Below are positions 1 to 11,654 of a DNA stretch of 36,207 nucleotides, one piece after another. How positions within the stretch are numbered: position 1 is the stretch's first letter; every line of letters begins with the position of its first letter. The stretch comes from a virus (taxonomy: Duplodnaviria > Heunggongvirae > Uroviricota > Caudoviricetes). A program made the translations under genes and the position numbers. The notes below the pieces were generated by a model. It saw nothing but the letters and a program-made list of their open reading frames with translations. It did no database searches and had not been told where the DNA came from. The stretch covers positions 1-36,207 of the IMG/VR virus record IMGVR_UViG_2541047897_000007; one strand, given 5' to 3'.

Positions 1-1002
1 TTACCCTCTATTGTCAAAAGGGTTCAATTCAACAGCAGCCTCTAAATGACCTGGAGCAAAATGCGCATAACGCATAGTCATTTTTATATCGCTATGCCCC
101 AGTATTTTTTGCAACACAAGAATATTTCCGCCCCGCATCATAAAATGACTGGCAAACGTGTGACGTAGCACATGAGTTAATTGCCCATCAGGAAGCTCGA
201 TCTTCGCTCTCTTAATTGCAGCGTCAAAAGCCTCATAACATGGTGAAAATAGCGCTCCTCGTTTTTTGGGAAGCATAGCCTGCAATTGAGGTGAAATCGG
301 TACAGTGCGGTTCTTCTTTCCTTTAGTTTTAACAAATGTGATTCGACCGGGCAGTACTTGAGATTGCTTTAATCCTTCTGCTTCACTCCACCGAGCACCA
401 GTCGCAAGCCCAATACGGACAACAACCCCCAAATCTTTATTCCGTGACTCATCACACGCAATCAGAAGGCGTTCAATCTCATCTACATACAGAAACGCCA
501 GTTCCTTTTCTTCCTCACGAAACTTGCGAATACCAGTCAGGGGGTTTTCACCAGACCACTCCCCAAGGCGCTTCAGTTCGGCAAAAACAGCATGTAGATA
601 TGACTGCTCGCGATTAACGGTTGCTTCACTAAGTTTTTTCTTCCCCTTGGGATTCCATTCTCCTGATAGCCTTCTTTCCCGATAAGTGGCAAACATATTT
701 TTGTCAAACTGAGAAGCAAATGGATCTCCCAGCCTGGAACAAATCGCCTCAAGTTTGACTTTGCGCTCTGCACCAGAGGACAAGGTTTTACCGTACATCT
801 CAAACCAACGAGCAATCAACTCAGAAAGACGAGGACCAGAACCATCTTGAAACTCGTCTCCAACTCTACTATTCATTAAACGGCGCTCATAAGAGAGCGC
901 CTCACTTTTTGTCGCAAACTGTTTACGAATGCGTTTTCCCGATGCCCCGTAGGGATAACATTCGCAAAGCCATTTACCTGATGGAATCTTACGAACCGAC
1001 AT
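1..1002 (-). CDS. int: tyrosine-type site-specific integrase
   Basis: 333-aa ORF with stop at 1..3; C-terminal catalytic region HVLRHTFASHFMMRGG...RYAHF matches the tyrosine recombinase signature; sits at the prophage end in P2-like orientation. Confidence 0.9.
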   Translation of the reverse strand: MSVRKIPSGKWLCECYPYGASGKRIRKQFATKSEALSYERRLMNSRVGDEFQDGSGPRLSELIARWFEMYGKTLSSGAERKVKLEAICSRLGDPFASQFDKNMFATYRERRLSGEWNPKGKKKLSEATVNREQSYLHAVFAELKRLGEWSGENPLTGIRKFREEEKELAFLYVDEIERLLIACDESRNKDLGVVVRIGLATGARWSEAEGLKQSQVLPGRITFVKTKGKKNRTVPISPQLQAMLPKKRGALFSPCYEAFDAAIKRAKIELPDGQLTHVLRHTFASHFMMRGGNILVLQKILGHSDIKMTMRYAHFAPGHLEAAVELNPFDNRG

Positions 1003-1007
1003 TTTAG

Positions 1008-1355
1008 TTACTTATCACATAAATCAAATGCAGCCTTAGTGACATCCCCTAGGCTCTTTTTTAACCCTGGGGCGGCATCATTATCTAGCCAAAATGGATT
1101 ATTGTTATCTAACGGTAACGCACCAAATGTTTTACCTTTTATTCGAGCCAAACCTGTAAGTGCATATAACTTATTATCGTCAAAATTCATCACATAAGGA
1201 TTACCATCAAGACACTGTAATTGAACCTCATCAGTATTAAATGGCCATACCCCATTGAAACTCTCACGTTCAATAGTTTTAAAAGGCATTGCGACGGCGG
1301 AAAAAGAAAACATAGATAAAAAAGTAACTAATAGTTGAACCTTTTTTACTTTCAT
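1008..1355 (-). CDS. hypothetical secreted protein
   Basis: 115-aa ORF with N-terminal signal-peptide-like segment MKVKKVQLLVTFLSMFSFSAVA; two Cys residues; lies between int and the repressor operon. Confidence 0.55.
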   Translation of the reverse strand: MKVKKVQLLVTFLSMFSFSAVAMPFKTIERESFNGVWPFNTDEVQLQCLDGNPYVMNFDDNKLYALTGLARIKGKTFGALPLDNNNPFWLDNDAAPGLKKSLGDVTKAAFDLCDK

Positions 1356-1384
1356 ATCATTACCTCAATTTAGCTCAAGTAAGA

Positions 1385-2035
1385 TTACAAATTAAAAAAC
1401 GCCCTAGAAATGACACCGCCTACCAAAACCCCTACGCAGATAAAGAATATTATTTCTTTTGGATAAAGTCGGATTAATTCTGAAGCACGAAGTCGGACTT
1501 CTGGTAAGGTCGAACTCTCTGTGTGGCTTGATGCCGATTGTTGCTCTAACCACGACAATGCAGACTGTAACTGAGAACGAGTAAGATCGTTTAAACGTCC
1601 TGTACCGAAATTGATATGGCAATACCGCAGAAGTTTTTGTCGAAGTCCACAGTCTTCACTGTTACGTAGTAATAAACTTACAAGAGCCTTACAGGCATCA
1701 TGATCTTTACATCGCTCAAGCATTGCATGCAGAAAACTCTCCGCTGTTTTATATTGATTTACTGTCATATCATCAATACCAGCTACACCAATCTCCGCAT
1801 GTACTTTTTGCCAAATAATAAACGCTTCAGTATTGCTAGCTTCTGCAATAGCAGCAACCAAGCTATTCAGCTCCTTACGCTGAGCCTTAAGCAAAGGGCG
1901 ATCGTCATCATCATTATTCGAAGGGATTGCGATATTGACGGTATGAGAACCATCATATCGCTCTATCTGAATATTCTTTTCGTGAAAATCACGCCCAGCA
2001 ACGCGATTGTTTGAACCGTTTGAGTTGACGGCCAT
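1385..2035 (-). CDS. hypothetical protein with C-terminal transmembrane anchor
   Basis: 216-aa ORF; C-terminal hydrophobic helix IIFFICVGVLVGGVISRAFF; starts 15 bp after the repressor stop so probably co-transcribed; N-terminus shares the motif NNR[IV]AGRD[YF] with the repressor C-terminus. Confidence 0.55.
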   Translation of the reverse strand: MAVNSNGSNNRVAGRDFHEKNIQIERYDGSHTVNIAIPSNNDDDDRPLLKAQRKELNSLVAAIAEASNTEAFIIWQKVHAEIGVAGIDDMTVNQYKTAESFLHAMLERCKDHDACKALVSLLLRNSEDCGLRQKLLRYCHINFGTGRLNDLTRSQLQSALSWLEQQSASSHTESSTLPEVRLRASELIRLYPKEIIFFICVGVLVGGVISRAFFNL

Positions 2036-2050
2036 GTCACCTCCCTACTA

Positions 2051-2455
2051 TCACCTACCCTTAGTTTCGTTATAGTCACGACCAGCGATACGGTTATTAC
2101 CACCAGAAATATTTAACTCACGTCCTGATGGCTGAGTTTCCTTTTCACTGATCGCACCTTTTAAAGCCCCAATCACCGCGTTTTTCACATCTAACGAAGC
2201 TGCTCGAAAGCGAGTAATCAACTCCTGCTCATCATCGTTATAAGTTTCAGGTGAGTGAATTCCCAACACAACATACTGAACATCAAGGCCAAAACGAGAC
2301 AGCGCTGCCAAATACGCAGCATCAGGAAAGCTATCTCCTTTCTCATATCTAAGCTGAGTTAGCTTTTTGACTCCACCAATGTCGCTCATGGCAACTTGAC
2401 TAAGTCCCAATCTTTCCCTTTCCTCACGCAACCGCTGACCAATATCATTTTTCAT
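2051..2455 (-). CDS. HTH XRE-family transcriptional regulator, probable prophage repressor
   Basis: 134-aa ORF; helix-turn-helix LSQVAMSDIGGVKKLTQLRYEKG; divergent from the early operon with a promoter/operator-like region between them. Confidence 0.75.
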   Translation of the reverse strand: MKNDIGQRLREERERLGLSQVAMSDIGGVKKLTQLRYEKGDSFPDAAYLAALSRFGLDVQYVVLGIHSPETYNDDEQELITRFRAASLDVKNAVIGALKGAISEKETQPSGRELNISGGNNRIAGRDYNETKGR

Positions 2456-2530
2456 ACAAAAACCTTGACAGGTATCTTTTTTGATACCAAAATGATTTCA
2501 CGAGCTATTAGATGATCACAATATACCACT
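2456..2530. promoter_or_regulatory. divergent promoter/operator region between repressor and early operon
   Basis: TTGACA at 2465..2470, 17-bp spacer, CAAAAT at 2488..2493; the spacer carries the dyad ggtatc-N6-gatacc (2471..2488), a candidate operator. Confidence 0.45.
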
Positions 2531-2737
2531 ATGAAACAAGTTCTTCACGATACCAGATCACGCATTCCGCGTAACACCGCCACAGGTCCAAGACTGGCAC
2601 TTCGGCTGTCCCTCGAGGAGCGAGCCGTCATTGATGAAATGGCAGCTAAAGAACAACGCTCATCCTCTAACATGGCGCGCATGATCTTCCTTCGCGGCCT
2701 AGAGCTAACCCAGAAAGAACAAAACAAATCTTCCTGA
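2531..2737 (+). CDS. small early regulator, possibly ribbon-helix-helix (Cro/Apl-like candidate)
   Basis: 68-aa first ORF of the divergent early operon; RLSLEERAVIDEMAAKEQRSSSNMARMIFLRGLE resembles an RHH/Arc-like fold; no clear Shine-Dalgarno, so the start is uncertain. Confidence 0.45.
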   Translation: MKQVLHDTRSRIPRNTATGPRLALRLSLEERAVIDEMAAKEQRSSSNMARMIFLRGLELTQKEQNKSS

Positions 2738-2753
2738 TCAGGAGGCTAGTGGG

Positions 2754-2957
2754 ATGTCAGGTATAACCATCAATATCAATGTGAATGCCCCCTATGTATC
2801 CCTGCAGAAATATGCAGAGATAACAGGTATCCCTCTTAATACATGCAAAAAGATGTTGGCTGACGGTCGAATTATTATCCGCCCCAAACGCGCCAAAATG
2901 GAAAAGCCTGAAGTAAACCTTGTGGCGATGTTAAAAGACGCTTTGGCTAACAGCTAA
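2754..2957 (+). CDS. Cox-like excisionase / early DNA-binding regulator
   Basis: 67-aa ORF with AGGAGG 6 nt upstream; YVSLQKYAEITGIPLNTCKKMLADGRI resembles the HTH of P2 Cox as recalled from memory. Confidence 0.55.
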   Translation: MSGITININVNAPYVSLQKYAEITGIPLNTCKKMLADGRIIIRPKRAKMEKPEVNLVAMLKDALANS

Positions 2958-2978
2958 AACAATGAACAGAGCACCATC

Positions 2979-3329
2979 ATGAAAAAAAACGCTAATAATC
3001 CATACTCCAAATTTCGTAATGGCGTAGAACGCCATGTACACCACGTCGCTACCAGTGCATCACGTAGTAACAGTCGCTATAACCTGAACGAAACACACGC
3101 AACACCGGATGGCCACGCTGTAAAACAAATCGGCGAGCATACCTGGCTGATTGAGAAAGCTGGAATCGTGGTCCACAAATGCCCACGCAATCCGTTTACC
3201 GGAAACCGCATTTTTGCATTGAGCTGCGGAGACAATCACTTCGGACAGGATTTCACATTATACGAAGCACTTCGCACGGTTGATCGTCTGCTTCGCGGGC
3301 AAAGTTTTATTAAACAGGCTGATTTATAA
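2979..3329 (+). CDS. hypothetical early protein
   Basis: 116-aa ORF in the early operon; no recognisable motif. Confidence 0.45.
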   Translation: MKKNANNPYSKFRNGVERHVHHVATSASRSNSRYNLNETHATPDGHAVKQIGEHTWLIEKAGIVVHKCPRNPFTGNRIFALSCGDNHFGQDFTLYEALRTVDRLLRGQSFIKQADL

Positions 3330-3339
3330 CAGGTGCTTT

Positions 3340-3654
3340 ATGACCAAAGAGCATGCACAAGGTGTATTTATCCGTTTTATTGATTTTCGCGGTGAACTGT
3401 TATTACGCGCATCCGCTATTGATGGAGTGGCTCCGGCGGGTAAAAACGGAGCCGACGAAGCCACTTACGTTTATCTGAACGGCACGCGACTGCTTGTGGA
3501 ACTTCCGTACCAGACCGTACGAGAAATCATTAGTGAAGCTGAAAAGGCACGCCTGGCTAATGGCGTGAACCCTATATCGAAATTATTTGTATGGATTCAG
3601 AAACTGAAATTCAGAAAGCAGATTAAAGGGCGTTGCGATGGGCAAAGAATATAA
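3340..3654 (+). CDS. hypothetical early protein
   Basis: ATG at 3340 chosen over the upstream-extended ORF-track start at 3280 to avoid overlap with the preceding gene; 104 aa. Confidence 0.45.
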   Translation: MTKEHAQGVFIRFIDFRGELLLRASAIDGVAPAGKNGADEATYVYLNGTRLLVELPYQTVREIISEAEKARLANGVNPISKLFVWIQKLKFRKQIKGRCDGQRI

Positions 3655-9177: not shown

Positions 9178-10137
9178 ATGAAAATTTGTATCGATGACGG
9201 CTCCACCAACATCAAGCTGGCATGGACTGAGAACGGCGAACGCCGCAACGCCATCAGCCCAAACAGCTTCAAGTCGGAATGGTCTGCGCCGTTCGGTGGC
9301 ACGCAGCCCGCGAACTACATGCTTGATGGCGTGCGCTATGGTTTTGATCCGGTCAGCGATCGCTTTGTCCAGACGACCGACACGCAATACCAGTACAGCG
9401 ATGTGAATGTCATTGCCATTCATCACGCGCTGGTCAAATCAGGCATCACACCACAGGAAGTGGATGTGGTTGTCACCCTGCCACTGAGCGAATATTTCGA
9501 CACAAACGCACAGCCGGTCATGGCCAACATCAACCGCAAAAAAGCAAACGTCATGCGCCCGGTGGCGTACCAGAACGGAAAAGCATTCACTATCCGTAAC
9601 GTACGGGTTATGCCTGAATCCATTCCGGCTGGTTTTAAAGCACTGGCTGACATGAGTCCGTTTGAATCCCTGCTGATTGTGGATTTAGGCGGAACCACGC
9701 TGGATGTGGCAAAGGTTCAGGGACAACTGGCAGGTATCAGCCAGGTGTTTTGCGATCCACACGTAGGCGTTTCCCTGATGGCCGATGCCGTACTGTCGGT
9801 GATGGCCACTAACGGTATGCGTACCAGTCACCACATCGCCAATACCATTATCGAACATCGCCATGATGAAGCTTGGCTGCGCCAGCACATCCACAATGAC
9901 GCGCATTACGACAGCCTGATAGCGGTTATTCGTGAAAAGGAAGAAACACTGAAACAACGCGTGATCCGCGCGCTGGCGGGTTTTTCGGGTTACGGGCGGG
10001 TGATGGTTGTCGGTGGCGGGGCGGAGATTGTGGCACCCGCTATCCGCGAAGCCTGCGGAGTTAATGCGACTTTCATCGCGGACGGGGTGCCACAGTTTGC
10101 TCTGGTTAATGGGCTGTACGCAATGGACAAGGAGTAA
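9178..10137 (+). CDS. parM: ParM/StbA-like actin-type segregation ATPase
   Basis: 319-aa ORF; actin-fold motifs IDDGSTNIKL, IVDLGGTTLD and VVGGGAE; close match along its length to plasmid R1 ParM as recalled from memory. Confidence 0.85.
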   Translation: MKICIDDGSTNIKLAWTENGERRNAISPNSFKSEWSAPFGGTQPANYMLDGVRYGFDPVSDRFVQTTDTQYQYSDVNVIAIHHALVKSGITPQEVDVVVTLPLSEYFDTNAQPVMANINRKKANVMRPVAYQNGKAFTIRNVRVMPESIPAGFKALADMSPFESLLIVDLGGTTLDVAKVQGQLAGISQVFCDPHVGVSLMADAVLSVMATNGMRTSHHIANTIIEHRHDEAWLRQHIHNDAHYDSLIAVIREKEETLKQRVIRALAGFSGYGRVMVVGGGAEIVAPAIREACGVNATFIADGVPQFALVNGLYAMDKE

Positions 10138-10141
10138 ACCA

Positions 10142-10453
10142 ATGACGACACCAACCAGACGGATAAGTTTCTATCTGAAGCCCGCCGCCGTCAAGAACGA
10201 AGGCGAAGCATGCGCCTGGCTGGACAGCCTTACACCAGAAGCCCGCAAAAGTGGTCAACGTGTGGCTTTTCTGGCCGGACTGGCACTTATGAAAATTAAT
10301 CCGGCAGAGGCTTACCGACTGGCTGCATGGGCTGACGATGAAGCGTTATCCCTGACACAAACCAGGACAGAACGCCCCGTGTCACAGCCAGCACCAACCG
10401 CACAGATAACCAGTCAGATGGCCGGAAATATCCGGGCGTTATTTCCCGAATAA
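10142..10453 (+). CDS. parR: ParR-like centromere-binding adaptor (candidate)
   Basis: 103-aa product from the ATG at 10142 with AGGAG RBS; RRISFYLKP...AGLAL...LFPE resembles R1 ParR as recalled from memory; position directly after the parM-like gene. Confidence 0.55.
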   Translation: MTTPTRRISFYLKPAAVKNEGEACAWLDSLTPEARKSGQRVAFLAGLALMKINPAEAYRLAAWADDEALSLTQTRTERPVSQPAPTAQITSQMAGNIRALFPE

Positions 10454-10516: not shown

Positions 10517-10849
10517 ATGCAACACATTGACAGAGAAAAAGCGCAGCGACTGATTGAGCGGATGGAAGCGCTGGCGCAAGAAGAAAATGTCAACATCCAA
10601 AAAATAGCTGAATGTGGCCAGATAGTTCTTCGTCGTGAAAAAGACCTCAAACAACTGATGTCTGGCAAAACCAGCAAAACATGGGATTCAGGCGAGGAAA
10701 TGATTTATTGCAGCTTCTGCAATAAATCCCAGTACGAAGTCACAAAGGTGATTGCTGGACCGTCTGTTTACATCTGCAATGAGTGCGTGGATTTGTGCAA
10801 TGAAATTATCAGGAGAGAAGTGGCAGACAAAAAGGGAAAAAACACATGA
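10517..10849 (+). CDS. stand-alone ClpX-type C4 zinc-finger (ZBD) domain protein
   Basis: 110-aa ORF with strong RBS; C-terminal [38 protein letters not shown] is near-identical in pattern to the E. coli ClpX N-terminal zinc-binding domain, including the spacing of all four Cys; no AAA+ module follows. Confidence 0.75.
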
Positions 10850-11160
10850 ACAGAAAACAAAAACAAGAGTTGAAATACTTTTTACGTAAAGAAATTGCCA
10901 GGCTTGAAGATGCAGAATCACGATCATCAGAAATTCCGTTCGGAATGGATATCAACGACGCCCGTATGCTCCAGGCATACCGTATAGCTCAGGCTGCACT
11001 ACAGGCAAAACCGTCAGATGGACTGGTTAGAGCAGTACGTTTCTATGAACTGGTAAAGCGTGAGAATCCGCCAACCGAAACCGGAGCATGGAAAGACGCT
11101 GTTGACTGGGTGCTCAGAGAAGCTTGCCAGACTGTAAACATTGGTATCAAAGGAGAGTGA
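10846..11160 (+). CDS. hypothetical protein
   Basis: 104-aa ORF, start overlaps the upstream stop. Confidence 0.55.
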
Positions 11161-11162
11161 GA

Positions 11163-11654
11163 GTGCAGATTTCACCGGTTACTCTTCGTGTTGCGAAGGC
11201 ATTTATATCCAGACATCACCGACACAATAAACCCCCGGTGGGGCATAAATTCAGCATTGGTCTGAGAAATGATGCCGGAGAATTGATAGGTGTGGCGACA
11301 GCCGGTCGACCTGTTGCACGACATTTGGACGATGGATTAACGCTTGAAGTAAATCGCACATGTACCACAGGAGAACGCAACGCTAACAGCGCGCTTTATG
11401 GTGCTGTCTGGCGGGCAGCAAAAGCTATGGGTTATCAACGTTGTATTACGTACACCCGGGCAGATGAATCAGGAGCATCTCTTCGCGCAGCTGGTTTTGT
11501 TCGTGTGAAAGAGCTTCCTCCAAGAAAAAGCTGGGCGGAATCAAGCGTCGCCCTGCGGAGTAAACGCGATCCGGTCGGAAACGGTGGTGTTCCTCGTGTG
11601 CTCTGGGAAATCAGGAGAATGAGTACCACTGGCATTCGCATCAAAGGAGAGTGA
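11163..11654 (+). CDS. hypothetical protein (weak GNAT-like resemblance)
   Basis: GTG start at 11163 with AGGAG 6 nt upstream preferred over the overlapping ATG at 11124; 163 aa. Confidence 0.45.
   Translation: MQISPVTLRVAKAFISRHHRHNKPPVGHKFSIGLRNDAGELIGVATAGRPVARHLDDGLTLEVNRTCTTGERNANSALYGAVWRAAKAMGYQRCITYTRADESGASLRAAGFVRVKELPPRKSWAESSVALRSKRDPVGNGGVPRVLWEIRRMSTTGIRIKGE

What the first reader, a model, noticed from the sequence alone, without database searches (positions are those of the whole stretch)
1008..2455. Two cargo genes embedded in the repressor transcript between int and the repressor
P2 and 186 have no genes between int and the repressor. Here a 216-aa protein with a C-terminal membrane anchor and a 115-aa signal-peptide protein follow the repressor after gaps of 15 bp and 29 bp, so they are probably expressed in the lysogen. 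Membrane and periplasmic proteins expressed from a lysogenic transcript are classic superinfection-exclusion or abortive-infection candidates.
Basis: partly seen in the sequence, partly recalled or inferred. Interest (0 to 1): 0.6.

Follow-up and report, generated by a model that had tools for sequence, protein, structure and literature searches.

The report
Phage repressor's membrane partner plus cargo
Of the two genes between the repressor and integrase of this P2-like E. coli prophage, only the small periplasmic one is swappable cargo; the other is a conserved membrane-anchored partner of the repressor that shares a short co-evolving peptide motif with it, pointing to an undescribed way of controlling phage dormancy.

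Summary
The ORFs, the 15/29/5 bp gaps, the C-terminal anchor and the signal peptide are all real. P2, 186 and P88 have nothing between int and the repressor. The phrase "two cargo genes" is only half right.

**115-aa gene (1008-1355):** true cargo. It is a YebY/DUF2511-fold periplasmic protein in a hypervariable slot. That slot holds 0-3 genes from at least 8 unrelated families in related prophages.

**216-aa gene (1385-2035):** not cargo.
- It is a tail-anchored Flk_N-domain protein that followed the HTH repressor in 100 of 100 related loci.
- The same repressor-plus-membrane-partner pairing also occurs in Mu-like transposable phages.
- The repressor's C-terminal tail (LNISGGNNRIAGRDYNE) matches the partner's N-terminus (VNSNGSNNRVAGRDFHE).
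- In 22 divergent lineages the motif differs but still matches within each pair (0 of 100,000 permutations reach the observed score). More than half of the conserved residues use different codons.
- Nearly all partners (99 of 102) are membrane proteins.

**Best reading:** the repressor and this membrane-tethered partner form one immunity module and contact each other through the motif, probably to set repressor availability or prophage induction. This is inferred, not shown.

No defence-system model matches either gene. Superinfection exclusion remains a plausible but untested role for the cargo gene, by analogy with Vibrio phage K139 Glo.

The parts
2051..2455 (-). Immunity repressor, 134 aa: N-terminal XRE-type HTH, an Ala-rich helix, then a C-terminal tail
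   Evidence: Pfam HTH_31/HTH_3 hits are below the gathering cut-offs; phrog_8/4/3 are repressor families. It resembles the P22 C2 HTH. Its position is opposite a Pe-like promoter and a cox-like gene, as in P2.
2066..2116 (-). Repressor tail motif LNISGGNNRIAGRDYNE (residues 114-130), followed by the basic end TKGR
   Evidence: BLASTP against residues 3-19 of the 216-aa protein: 10/17 identical, 15/17 positive, E 2e-5. The motif is conserved in repressor homologues.
2036..2050 (-). Intergenic 15 bp: two further in-frame stops (TAG TAG after the TGA), then GGAGGTGAC as the ribosome-binding site
   Evidence: Sequence read. The three tandem stops argue against a read-through fusion.
1385..2035 (-). 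216-aa tail-anchored Flk_N-domain protein, the conserved partner of the repressor
   Evidence: PF27202 Flk_N. NCBIfam Flk E 8.6e-16 over residues 37-166. phrog_5825 E 4e-103. Found downstream of the repressor in 100 of 100 loci.
1979..2029 (-). Partner N-terminal motif VNSNGSNNRVAGRDFHE (residues 3-19), within a region predicted to be disordered (residues 1-42)
   Evidence: AlphaFold pLDDT is below 50 for residues 1-42. At DNA level the two copies are a 34-nt direct repeat of only 74% identity.
1520..1900 (-). Helical Flk_N domain (residues 46-172) containing an internal two-fold repeat
1394..1459 (-). C-terminal transmembrane anchor (residues 193-214)
   Evidence: Kyte-Doolittle 2.42. Helix 192-215. 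G202 and G206 are invariant.
1008..1355 (-). 115-aa secreted DUF2511/YebY-fold protein, the occupant of the variable cargo slot
   Evidence: Pfam PF10709 28.4 bits against a cut-off of 21. YebY 7n0j by sequence E 0.0027 and by fold E 1.5e-4, TM 0.64-0.80; MlbQ E 0.01. W37, C48 and C113 are conserved as in YebY (PMC8689200).
1290..1355 (-). Signal peptide (residues 1-22, with an AVA|M cleavage motif)
   Evidence: Assigned by rule of thumb; no dedicated predictor was available.
1..1002 (-). Tyrosine integrase, starting 5 bp after the cargo gene's stop
   Evidence: Pfam Int_N 5e-32 and Phage_integrase 2.5e-22.
2465..2493 (+). Early lytic promoter candidate (TTGACA-17-CAAAAT) facing the repressor gene
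   Evidence: The geometry is the same as P2 Pe.
2520..2525 (-). Candidate -10 box (TATATT) of the repressor promoter, face to face with the early promoter
   Evidence: My reading of the sequence. The scan did not call it because the -35 is weak. Inference only.

Best explanation
The stretch 1-2455 is the lysogenic operon of a P2-like (Xuanwuvirus) prophage that carries an alternative immunity cassette: repressor, membrane partner, cargo slot, integrase.

**Partner gene.** The 216-aa gene is an obligate partner of the repressor. It is a cytoplasm-facing Flk_N-domain protein held at the inner membrane by a C-terminal anchor. Its disordered N-terminus carries the same short Gly/Asn/Arg-rich motif as the repressor's C-terminal tail.

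**Proposed mechanism.** I propose that the two motifs pair, by strand-to-strand homotypic contact. The partner would thereby hold or release part of the repressor pool at the membrane. This would tune repressor availability and offer an SOS-independent route to induction, in the manner of a membrane-tethered anti-repressor or sensor.

**Cargo gene.** The 115-aa gene is unrelated cargo in the hypervariable slot before int. It is a disulfide-stabilised YebY/MlbQ-fold periplasmic binder. It most likely protects the lysogen at the envelope, either by excluding phage or by binding a peptide toxin.

**Shown:** gene order, conservation, co-occurrence, motif co-variation, folds and topology.

**Inferred:** co-transcription, physical contact, direction of regulation, and the role of the cargo gene.
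For: **Linkage**
- The repressor lies immediately upstream of the Flk_N gene in 100 of 100 loci from many Enterobacterales.
- The same pairing occurs in Mu-like transposable prophages of Pectobacterium, Gilliamella and Pseudomonas.
- P88, in the same phage genus, has a P2-type C repressor and no partner.
- A related repressor without the tail has no partner. It is followed directly by a cargo cassette seen elsewhere in the third slot.

**Motif**
- Within the window the match has E 2e-5.
- Across 22 lineage representatives, own-pair score averages 41.2 against 26.7 for cross-pairs. The summed score is 907 against 602 +/- 49 for permutations, and 0 of 100,000 permutations reach it.
- Composition controls score 20.5 (reversed) and 19.8 (shuffled). 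In 17 of 22 lineages the real pair beats at least 199 of 200 shuffles.
- Only 77 of 161 conserved residues share a codon, against 60.6 expected.

**Topology**
- 99 of 102 distinct partners have a transmembrane segment, with the motif at the cytoplasmic N-terminus.
- Some partners add a 60-100 residue periplasmic Cys-containing domain.
- Gaps are -4 to about 30 nt, consistent with coupled translation.

**Precedent**
- Salmonella Fluke is a cytoplasmic, C-terminally anchored protein. It contacts FlhA-C in a two-hybrid assay and is modelled as holding it in its early-substrate state (PMC13344023).

**Cargo**
- The slot is 302-1850 bp, holds 0-3 genes and draws on at least 8 families.
- The DUF2511 gene is combined with different repressor and partner types.
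- The YebY fold is supported.
- K139 has the periplasmic exclusion protein Glo at the same position.
Against: - No physical interaction was tested. AlphaFold leaves the motif region disordered in the monomer, and a fused or complex prediction was not possible.
- No natural repressor-partner fusion appeared among the 120 listed repressor homologues.
- One lineage (L120) keeps the tail motif but has a signal-peptide protein next to it instead.
- Five of 22 lineages show no significant match in the fixed windows used.
- The slight excess of shared codons leaves room for some gene conversion.
- The direction of regulation is a guess. The partner could sequester the repressor, stabilise it, or play a different role altogether.
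- For the cargo gene there is no functional evidence at all.
Confidence: 0.5

Rival explanations
1. One reading: both genes are cargo expressed from the lysogenic transcript, and they act as superinfection-exclusion or abortive-infection factors at the membrane and periplasm.
For: The position and topology match K139 Glo, which is periplasmic, acts in exclusion, and lies between cI and int (PMC4870250). Rousset et al. describe a defence hotspot between cI and int in K139-like phages (PMC9122126). Other occupants of the third slot match the candidate defence family PDC-S48 (1.4e-8) or BRCT with a weak WYL-like hit.
Against: The 216-aa gene never varies in presence and co-evolves with the repressor. 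Neither protein has a PADLOC hit. The 115-aa protein is not similar to Glo (E 7.5).
Confidence: 0.2
2. Amyloid-type signalling pair. The matched motifs template each other, as in Bab/Agp (BASS11) or HET-s/NWD2. A change of state in one protein would then convert the other. The outcome would be either repressor inactivation or activation of the membrane protein as a cell-killing effector.
For: The genomic signature is the same: adjacent genes, a C-terminal motif on one and an N-terminal motif on the next, with the motif co-varying (bioRxiv 10.1101/2024.11.07.622273; 10.1101/2020.01.06.895854). The motifs are rich in Gly, Asn, Gln and alternating hydrophobic residues, and are predicted to be disordered in the monomer.
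Against: There is no NLR-type sensor and no Bell/HeLo-type pore domain. The window's motif lacks the G-phi-Q-phi-G core that is the only BASS signature quoted in the text I read. It also contains charged residues (R, D, E). Amyloid formation was not testable. Both proteins are made constitutively from one operon.
Confidence: 0.12
3. The two motifs do not touch each other. Both are recognised by a third factor, such as a host protease, a chaperone, or the Flk_N domain itself. The partner would then act as a competitor or decoy, for example against satellite or heterologous anti-repressors.
For: Co-variation is equally expected if both motifs must fit one binding site. The Flk_N domain contains Red-beta-CTD-like helical units, and the Red-beta CTD is a peptide-binding module.
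Against: A host factor would not be expected to change with each phage lineage. Partners lacking a full Flk_N domain still carry a matched motif.
Confidence: 0.13
4. Evolutionary relic. The motif duplication is left over from a local duplication or a gene fission and has no present function.
For: The two copies form a tandem 34-nt direct repeat 87 nt apart. Shared codons are slightly in excess of expectation.
Against: Independent drift from one ancient duplication cannot make own pairs more alike than cross pairs. The motif is kept at the protein level with different codons, across gamma- and other proteobacterial lineages.
Confidence: 0.05

Closest known systems
Vibrio phage K139 lysogenic operon cI-orf2-glo-int
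   Same: It is a P2-related phage with two genes between the repressor and int, annotated as one lysogenic operon. The int-proximal gene encodes a small periplasmic protein (Glo) involved in phage exclusion. orf2 is a BRCT protein like some occupants of the variable slot here.
   Different: Glo is not sequence-similar to the 115-aa protein. K139 orf2 is not an Flk_N protein. K139 cI was not compared with orf2 for a matched motif.
Flk (Fluke), Salmonella/E. coli flagellar secretion-switch inhibitor
   Same: It has the Flk_N domain, is cytoplasmic, and has a C-terminal membrane anchor. It acts by contacting a partner protein at the membrane.
   Different: Flk is 320-430 aa and matches the profile in two stretches. 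It starts MQPxSGP, without the motif. It is chromosomal, and its partner is FlhA rather than a repressor. The NCBIfam score here is 58 against a cut-off of 353.
Bab/Agp (BASS11) and fungal HET-s/NWD2 amyloid signalling pairs
   Same: Adjacent genes carry a short matched motif at the C-terminus of one product and the N-terminus of the next.
   Different: The domains differ: HTH repressor and Flk_N membrane protein here, against a pore-former and an NLR/TPR-type sensor there. Fibril formation is untested. No such pair involving a phage repressor was found in the literature searched.
ImmR/ImmA of ICEBs1 and many Gram-positive phages (from my own knowledge; not checked here)
   Same: The operon order is repressor, dedicated anti-repressor, integrase. 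The partner gene is conserved with the repressor.
   Different: ImmA is a soluble metalloprotease that cleaves ImmR. The partner here has no peptidase domain and is membrane-bound.
Membrane or aggregate sequestration of regulators: Mlc-PtsG, RseA-sigmaE, Qtip-cI of phage VP882 (from my own knowledge)
   Same: A regulator is controlled by tethering or sequestration rather than by cleavage.
   Different: None of these uses a matched peptide motif on both proteins. None was tested here.
YebY (E. coli AZY operon) and MlbQ (lantibiotic self-resistance lipoprotein)
   Same: They share the DUF2511 fold, the conserved Trp and Cys-Cys disulfide, and an extracytoplasmic location.
   Different: Identity is only 26-32%. 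The gene lies in a prophage lysogenic operon, not with yobA-yebZ or ABC transporters. The prophage subfamily comprises only 18 clusters. PMC8689200 already noted YebY homologues lying between a recombinase gene and a CI-type HTH gene.
Defence/accessory hotspots of P2-like phages
   Same: There is a hypervariable slot flanked by conserved genes. A minor fraction of P2 defence systems lies between int and the primase (PMC13586616).
   Different: The main described P2 hotspots lie elsewhere: between gpA and the portal gene, and within the tail genes. This slot sits inside the lysogenic operon and holds mostly small proteins of unknown function.

Membership tests
Flk_N domain proteins (PF27202) | Match to the Flk_N domain | tested here: met
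   A precomputed PF27202 hit is recorded for essentially all homologues and for the called genes in related loci. NCBIfam Flk aligns residues 37-166, E 8.6e-16. The profile search recovers Flk-length proteins.
Flk (Fluke) equivalog, NF007987 | Full-length match above the curated cut-off, with the roughly 330-aa two-unit architecture | tested here: not met
   58 bits against a cut-off of 353. The protein is 216 aa with one Flk_N unit. Chromosomal Flk proteins begin MQPxSGP and lack the motif.
Flk (Fluke) equivalog, NF007987 | C-terminal membrane anchor with a cytoplasmic body | tested here: met
   Described for Fluke in PMC13344023.
DUF2511 / YebY family (PF10709) | Pfam match above the gathering score | tested here: met
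   28.4 bits against 21.
DUF2511 / YebY family (PF10709) | Conserved Cys pair and Trp, signal peptide, and YebY/MlbQ fold | tested here: met
   C48, C113 and W37 are invariant and correspond to YebY Cys48, Cys113 and Trp37. Foldseek gives 7n0j E 1.5e-4 and 2mvo E 0.011. The signal-peptide-like N-terminus is shown.
DUF2511 / YebY family (PF10709) | AZY (yobA-yebZ-yebY) copper-linked operon context | tested here: not met
   The gene is flanked by the Flk_N gene and int. The family is known to occur in other contexts as well.
Superinfection-exclusion proteins of the K139 Glo type | Small periplasmic protein encoded between the repressor and int in the lysogenic operon | tested here: met
Superinfection-exclusion proteins of the K139 Glo type | Homology to Glo | tested here: not met
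   BLASTP E 7.5.
Superinfection-exclusion proteins of the K139 Glo type | Blocks infection at an early step | not testable with these tools
   Needs plating assays.
Known anti-phage defence systems (PADLOC-DB 2.0) | Match to any defence protein model | tested here: not met
   No hits for either protein at E up to 1.
Amyloid signalling motif pairs (HET-s/NWD2, BASS, Bab/Agp) | Adjacent genes with a shared short motif at the C-terminus of one product and the N-terminus of the other | tested here: met
Amyloid signalling motif pairs (HET-s/NWD2, BASS, Bab/Agp) | One partner is an NLR/STAND-type or comparable sensor and the other is a Bell/HeLo-type membrane-targeting executioner | tested here: not met
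   The domains found are an HTH and Flk_N plus a membrane anchor.
Amyloid signalling motif pairs (HET-s/NWD2, BASS, Bab/Agp) | The motif forms transmissible cross-beta fibrils | not testable with these tools
   AlphaFold shows only a low-confidence, unstructured N-terminus.
ImmR/ImmA-type repressor/anti-repressor operons | The partner is a metalloprotease | tested here: not met
   No peptidase domain appears in Pfam, NCBIfam or the fold searches.
P2 C / 186 CI immunity regions | The repressor gene directly abuts int | tested here: not met
   P2, 186 and P88 have the two genes adjacent. Here 1,048 bp with two genes lie between them.

The most novel reading that the evidence does not exclude
A previously unrecognised type of lysis-lysogeny control. 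In it, a phage repressor carries a C-terminal address motif that is matched, lineage by lineage, by the cytoplasmic N-terminus of a co-translated membrane protein. That protein is either tail-anchored or bitopic with a small periplasmic domain.

Homotypic, possibly templated cross-beta, pairing of the two motifs would transmit a membrane or envelope signal to the repressor. This would give SOS-independent induction, or membrane-localised immunity.

The module is portable between P2-like and Mu-like phages of Enterobacterales, Orbaceae and Pseudomonas. This one allele alone is present in about 10% of complete E. coli genomes.
Probability: 0.3. Interest if true: 0.85.

Novelty: new variant of a known kind. 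Interest (0 to 1): 0.66.

Why it matters
How non-SOS temperate phages such as the P2-like and Mu-like phages decide to leave lysogeny is poorly understood.

A conserved repressor-plus-membrane-partner module with a co-evolving contact motif would supply a concrete, testable mechanism. It would also be the first link between matched-motif gene pairs, known so far from immune cell-death systems, and a phage genetic switch.

The allele studied here sits in 521 of 5,426 complete E. coli genomes, including O157:H7, O145, O103, O111 and O121 strains. It may therefore affect prophage stability in important pathogens.

It also corrects how the int-proximal region should be read in defence-hotspot surveys. 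Only the gene next to int is variable cargo.

Tried and rejected
1. **Read-through or frameshift fusion of repressor and partner.** The two ORFs are in frame in the window, but three tandem stops separate them. Only 9 of 22 lineages are in frame, and 7 have an ATGA overlap. Rejected.
2. **Natural repressor-Flk_N fusions.** None appeared among the 120 listed repressor homologues.
3. **Recent gene conversion as the cause of the similarity.** The DNA repeat is only 74% identical, and 84 of 161 conserved residues use different codons. Largely rejected.
4. **Amino-acid composition as the cause.** Reversed, shuffled and internal-segment controls score about 18-20 against 41 for real pairs. Rejected.
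6. **Defence annotation.** PADLOC gave nothing.
7. **Glo homology.** None.
8. **Fold of the Flk_N domain.** Only small helical-bundle matches were found: Red-beta CTD, NinB and DnaD; ORF6C and a RecT C-terminus weakly in BFVD. These suggest a protein-binding module and nothing more specific.
9. **Pfam scan of the alternative partner architectures.** Nothing above threshold.
10. **Promoter and terminator scan.** It finds the early promoter but no convincing repressor promoter or internal terminator. Total hits were no more than expected from shuffles.
11. **Literature.** Searches found nothing on phage Flk_N proteins or on repressor/amyloid-motif pairs. The original K139 paper (Nesper 1999) is not held in the library.
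Full report
**Observation**

On the minus strand the window encodes four genes: int (1-1002), a 115-aa ORF (1008-1355), a 216-aa ORF (1385-2035) and a 134-aa HTH protein (2051-2455). The gaps are 5, 29 and 15 bp.

The junctions read as follows:
- repressor to 216-aa gene: ...AAG GGT AGG TGA TAG TAG GGAGGTGAC ATG
- 216-aa gene to 115-aa gene: TAA...GAGGTAATGAT ATG
- 115-aa gene to int: TAA CTAAA ATG

No terminator-like hairpin lies on the minus strand across the four genes. A TTGACA-17-CAAAAT promoter faces the repressor gene, as Pe does in P2.

The 216-aa protein has a single hydrophobic segment at its extreme C-terminus. The 115-aa protein has a signal-peptide-like N-terminus.

P2, 186 and P88 all have the repressor directly beside int.

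**What the element is**

The window is a P2-like prophage of the genus Xuanwuvirus. It is 96.9% identical over 1-3400 to Escherichia phage 520873. The segment 1003-2460 occurs in 521 of 5,426 complete E. coli genomes, 479 of them at 99% identity or more. These include O157:H7, O145, O103, O111 and O121 strains.

Among 50,697 deposited phage genomes, the 216-aa gene is found only in phage 520873, where it is fragmented and unannotated, and weakly in three Ralstonia phages. No cultured model phage carries it intact.

**The 115-aa gene is cargo**

It belongs to DUF2511 (28.4 bits against a cut-off of 21; phrog_2950).
- It aligns to E. coli YebY (7n0j, E 0.0027), with both cysteines in register.
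- W37, C48 and C113 are invariant in the prophage subfamily. They are the residues described for YebY (PMC8689200).
- That paper already noted YebY homologues lying between a recombinase gene and a CI-type HTH gene.

Between the Flk_N gene and int, related prophages carry 302-1850 bp with 0-3 genes from at least eight unrelated families:
- DUF2511
- acidic DUF8087 proteins
- two kinds of BRCT protein, one matching the candidate defence family PDC-S48 at 1.4e-8
- a Zn-ribbon plus tail-anchored coiled-coil cassette
- 2-TM proteins
- a signal-peptide protein
- nothing at all

DUF2511 is combined with different repressor and partner types (L010, L076, L098, L104). Conversely, a repressor 94% identical to the window's is followed by a 72%-identical partner and DUF8087 instead (L071, L072).

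This is a classic accessory-gene hotspot. It parallels K139, where the periplasmic exclusion protein Glo occupies the int-proximal position (PMC4870250). It also parallels the cI-int hotspot that Rousset et al. noted in K139-like phages. Glo and the 115-aa protein are not similar in sequence, and PADLOC has no model for the 115-aa protein. Its function is unknown. An envelope-protective role is an inference.

**The 216-aa gene is not cargo**

It carries the Flk_N domain (PF27202; NCBIfam Flk E 8.6e-16 but far below the equivalog cut-off; phrog_5825). AlphaFold gives three regions:
- a disordered N-terminus, residues 1-42
- a confident six-helix domain, residues 46-172, with an internal two-fold repeat
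- a C-terminal transmembrane helix

The family is tiny. Only 139 cluster representatives exist among 1.84 billion. They split into phage-type proteins of about 185-225 aa, and chromosomal Flk proteins of 320-430 aa that lack the N-terminal motif.

In all 100 related loci examined, an HTH repressor ends 0-30 nt upstream of this gene.

The same repressor-plus-partner pairing also sits in Mu-like transposable prophages of Pectobacterium, Gilliamella and Pseudomonas. These loci carry an rve transposase, a MuB-like ATPase and a short Ner-sized gene opposite the repressor.

A closely related repressor that lacks the Ala-rich helix and tail has no partner. It is followed directly by a cargo cassette and int.

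**The matched motif**

The repressor's tail LNISGGNNRIAGRDYNE matches residues 3-19 of the partner, VNSNGSNNRVAGRDFHE: 10/17 identical, 15/17 positive, E 2e-5.

In other lineages the motif is different, but it again matches within the pair:

| Lineage | Repressor tail | Partner N-terminus |
|---|---|---|
| Pectobacterium | QIFNGDISGQFAGNQIIN | QEFNGTAQGQFSSRDIIN |
| L110 | QTFHGSVGQSVAGNVTN | QDFHGDVGQAAAGDINN |
| L130 | QVFNSKVSGQVSAENIYN | QNFYGQVDQVAANNIYN |
| L122 | QVFHGAVSGGVAARDIIN | QEFQGNVDGGVAGRDIVN |

Tests on 22 lineage representatives:
- Own-pair local alignment scores average 41.2, against 26.7 for cross pairs. The summed score of 907 exceeds all 100,000 permutations (mean 602, sd 49, maximum 832).
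- Reversed, shuffled or internal partner segments score about 18-20. In 17 of 22 pairs the real score beats at least 199 of 200 shuffles.
- Of 161 conserved degenerate residues, only 77 use the same codon (60.6 expected).
- In the window the two coding copies are 74% identical over 34 nt.

The likeness is therefore maintained mainly at the protein level. Independent drift from a single old duplication cannot make own pairs more alike than cross pairs, so this is co-evolution or repeated concerted change.

**Partner architecture**

Partners are not always Flk_N tail-anchored proteins. Some are 118-152-aa proteins with two TM segments. Others are 260-340-aa bitopic proteins with a coiled coil and a 60-100-residue periplasmic Cys-containing domain.

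However, 99 of 102 distinct partners have a membrane segment, and the motif is always at the cytoplasmic N-terminus. Repressor tails end in a basic cluster.

**Mechanism**

The shared denominator is a soluble DNA-binding repressor and a membrane protein, made from one operon, each displaying the same short strand-prone motif.

The most economical reading is direct homotypic pairing that tethers or releases repressor at the membrane. This would work like Fluke, which contacts FlhA-C in a two-hybrid assay and is modelled as stabilising it in the early-substrate conformation (PMC13344023). From general knowledge, it would also work like Mlc-PtsG, RseA-sigmaE or Qtip-cI. In operon logic it would resemble ImmR-ImmA-int.

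The variants with periplasmic domains suggest signal input from the envelope.

The gene-pair signature is also exactly the one used to find amyloid signalling pairs, such as Bab/Agp BASS11 in E. coli and HET-s/NWD2. The partner domains differ, however, and fibril formation is untested.

I found no paper describing phage Flk_N proteins or repressor motif pairs.

**Limits**

- Contact, co-transcription and phenotype are all inferred.
- AlphaFold could not be run on the complex.
- One lineage (L120) has the tail motif but no matching neighbour.
- Five of 22 lineages fail the fixed-window test.

**Verdict**

The more interesting result is the conserved, co-evolving repressor-membrane partner module.

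Noticed in passing
window 9178-10453: The gpA-to-portal accessory region carries a ParM/StbA actin-like segregation ATPase (PF06406 5e-81, PF21523 2e-68) and a Plasmid_stab_B protein (5e-25). This is a plasmid-type partition system inside a P2-like prophage.
   Followed up: partly
window 10517-10849 and 11124-11654: The same region holds a small protein with a ClpX-type C4 zinc finger (2.7e-18) and a weak Mom-like protein (1.2e-4, below cut-off). Neither has a PADLOC hit.
   Followed up: partly
window 2531-2737: An Arc-like ribbon-helix-helix gene (phrog_3431, 1e-28) is the first gene of the early operon, ahead of the Cox-like gene (2754-2957). P2, 186 and P88 start their early operons with cox/apl.
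   Followed up: no
L001 (NC_049344, phage 520873) 1039-3485: In the only deposited phage with this region, int is annotated as two CDSs. The Flk_N and DUF2511 genes are unannotated, and tblastn recovers the Flk_N gene in three pieces. This indicates frameshifts or sequencing errors.
   Followed up: partly
L122 2911-3720; L125 2929-3918; L129 3014-4039; L145 2920-3864; L168 2917-3702: These alternative repressor partners have the matched N-terminal motif, a coiled coil, one TM segment, and a conserved periplasmic domain of about 60 residues with two Cys (pattern C-x-F-x-G-x-x-[YF]-S-x-G...C-V). No Pfam family matches them. They are candidate sensor domains.
   Followed up: partly
window 1520-1900 (residues 46-172 of the 216-aa protein): The Flk_N domain contains an internal repeat: IIWQKVHAEIGVAGIDDMTVNQYKTAESFL resembles LLRYCHINFGTGRLNDLTRSQLQSALSWL. 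Each unit resembles the Red-beta C-terminal/ORF6C-type helical module.
   Followed up: partly
L120 2501-3526: This is an exception to the pairing rule. The repressor keeps a motif-bearing tail (SFHGPVGQAAQGDIKN), but the next gene encodes a 199-aa signal-peptide protein without the motif.
   Followed up: partly
L190-L192 3501-4632: In these P2-like prophages at the same chromosomal site, the repressor (119 aa) has a near-identical HTH but no Ala-helix or motif tail and no Flk_N gene. It is followed by a Zn-ribbon (117 aa) plus tail-anchored coiled-coil (140 aa) cassette that also occurs in the variable slot elsewhere.
   Followed up: yes
L015 5663-6538; L002 6647-7513: Variable-slot occupants in relatives include a 291-aa protein matching the PADLOC candidate PDC-S48 (1.4e-8), with a K139 orf2-like C-terminal BRCT-type stretch. 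Another is a 288-aa protein with an N-terminal BRCT domain (Pfam 5e-5) and a weak WYL-like match.
   Followed up: partly
window 1-3: The window begins exactly at the integrase stop codon. The attachment site and the prophage-host junction therefore lie outside it and could not be examined. Close E. coli relatives of the integrase sit next to yecA. More distant Klebsiella prophages (integrase 75% identical) sit at a different site, next to pgsA-uvrC.
   Followed up: no
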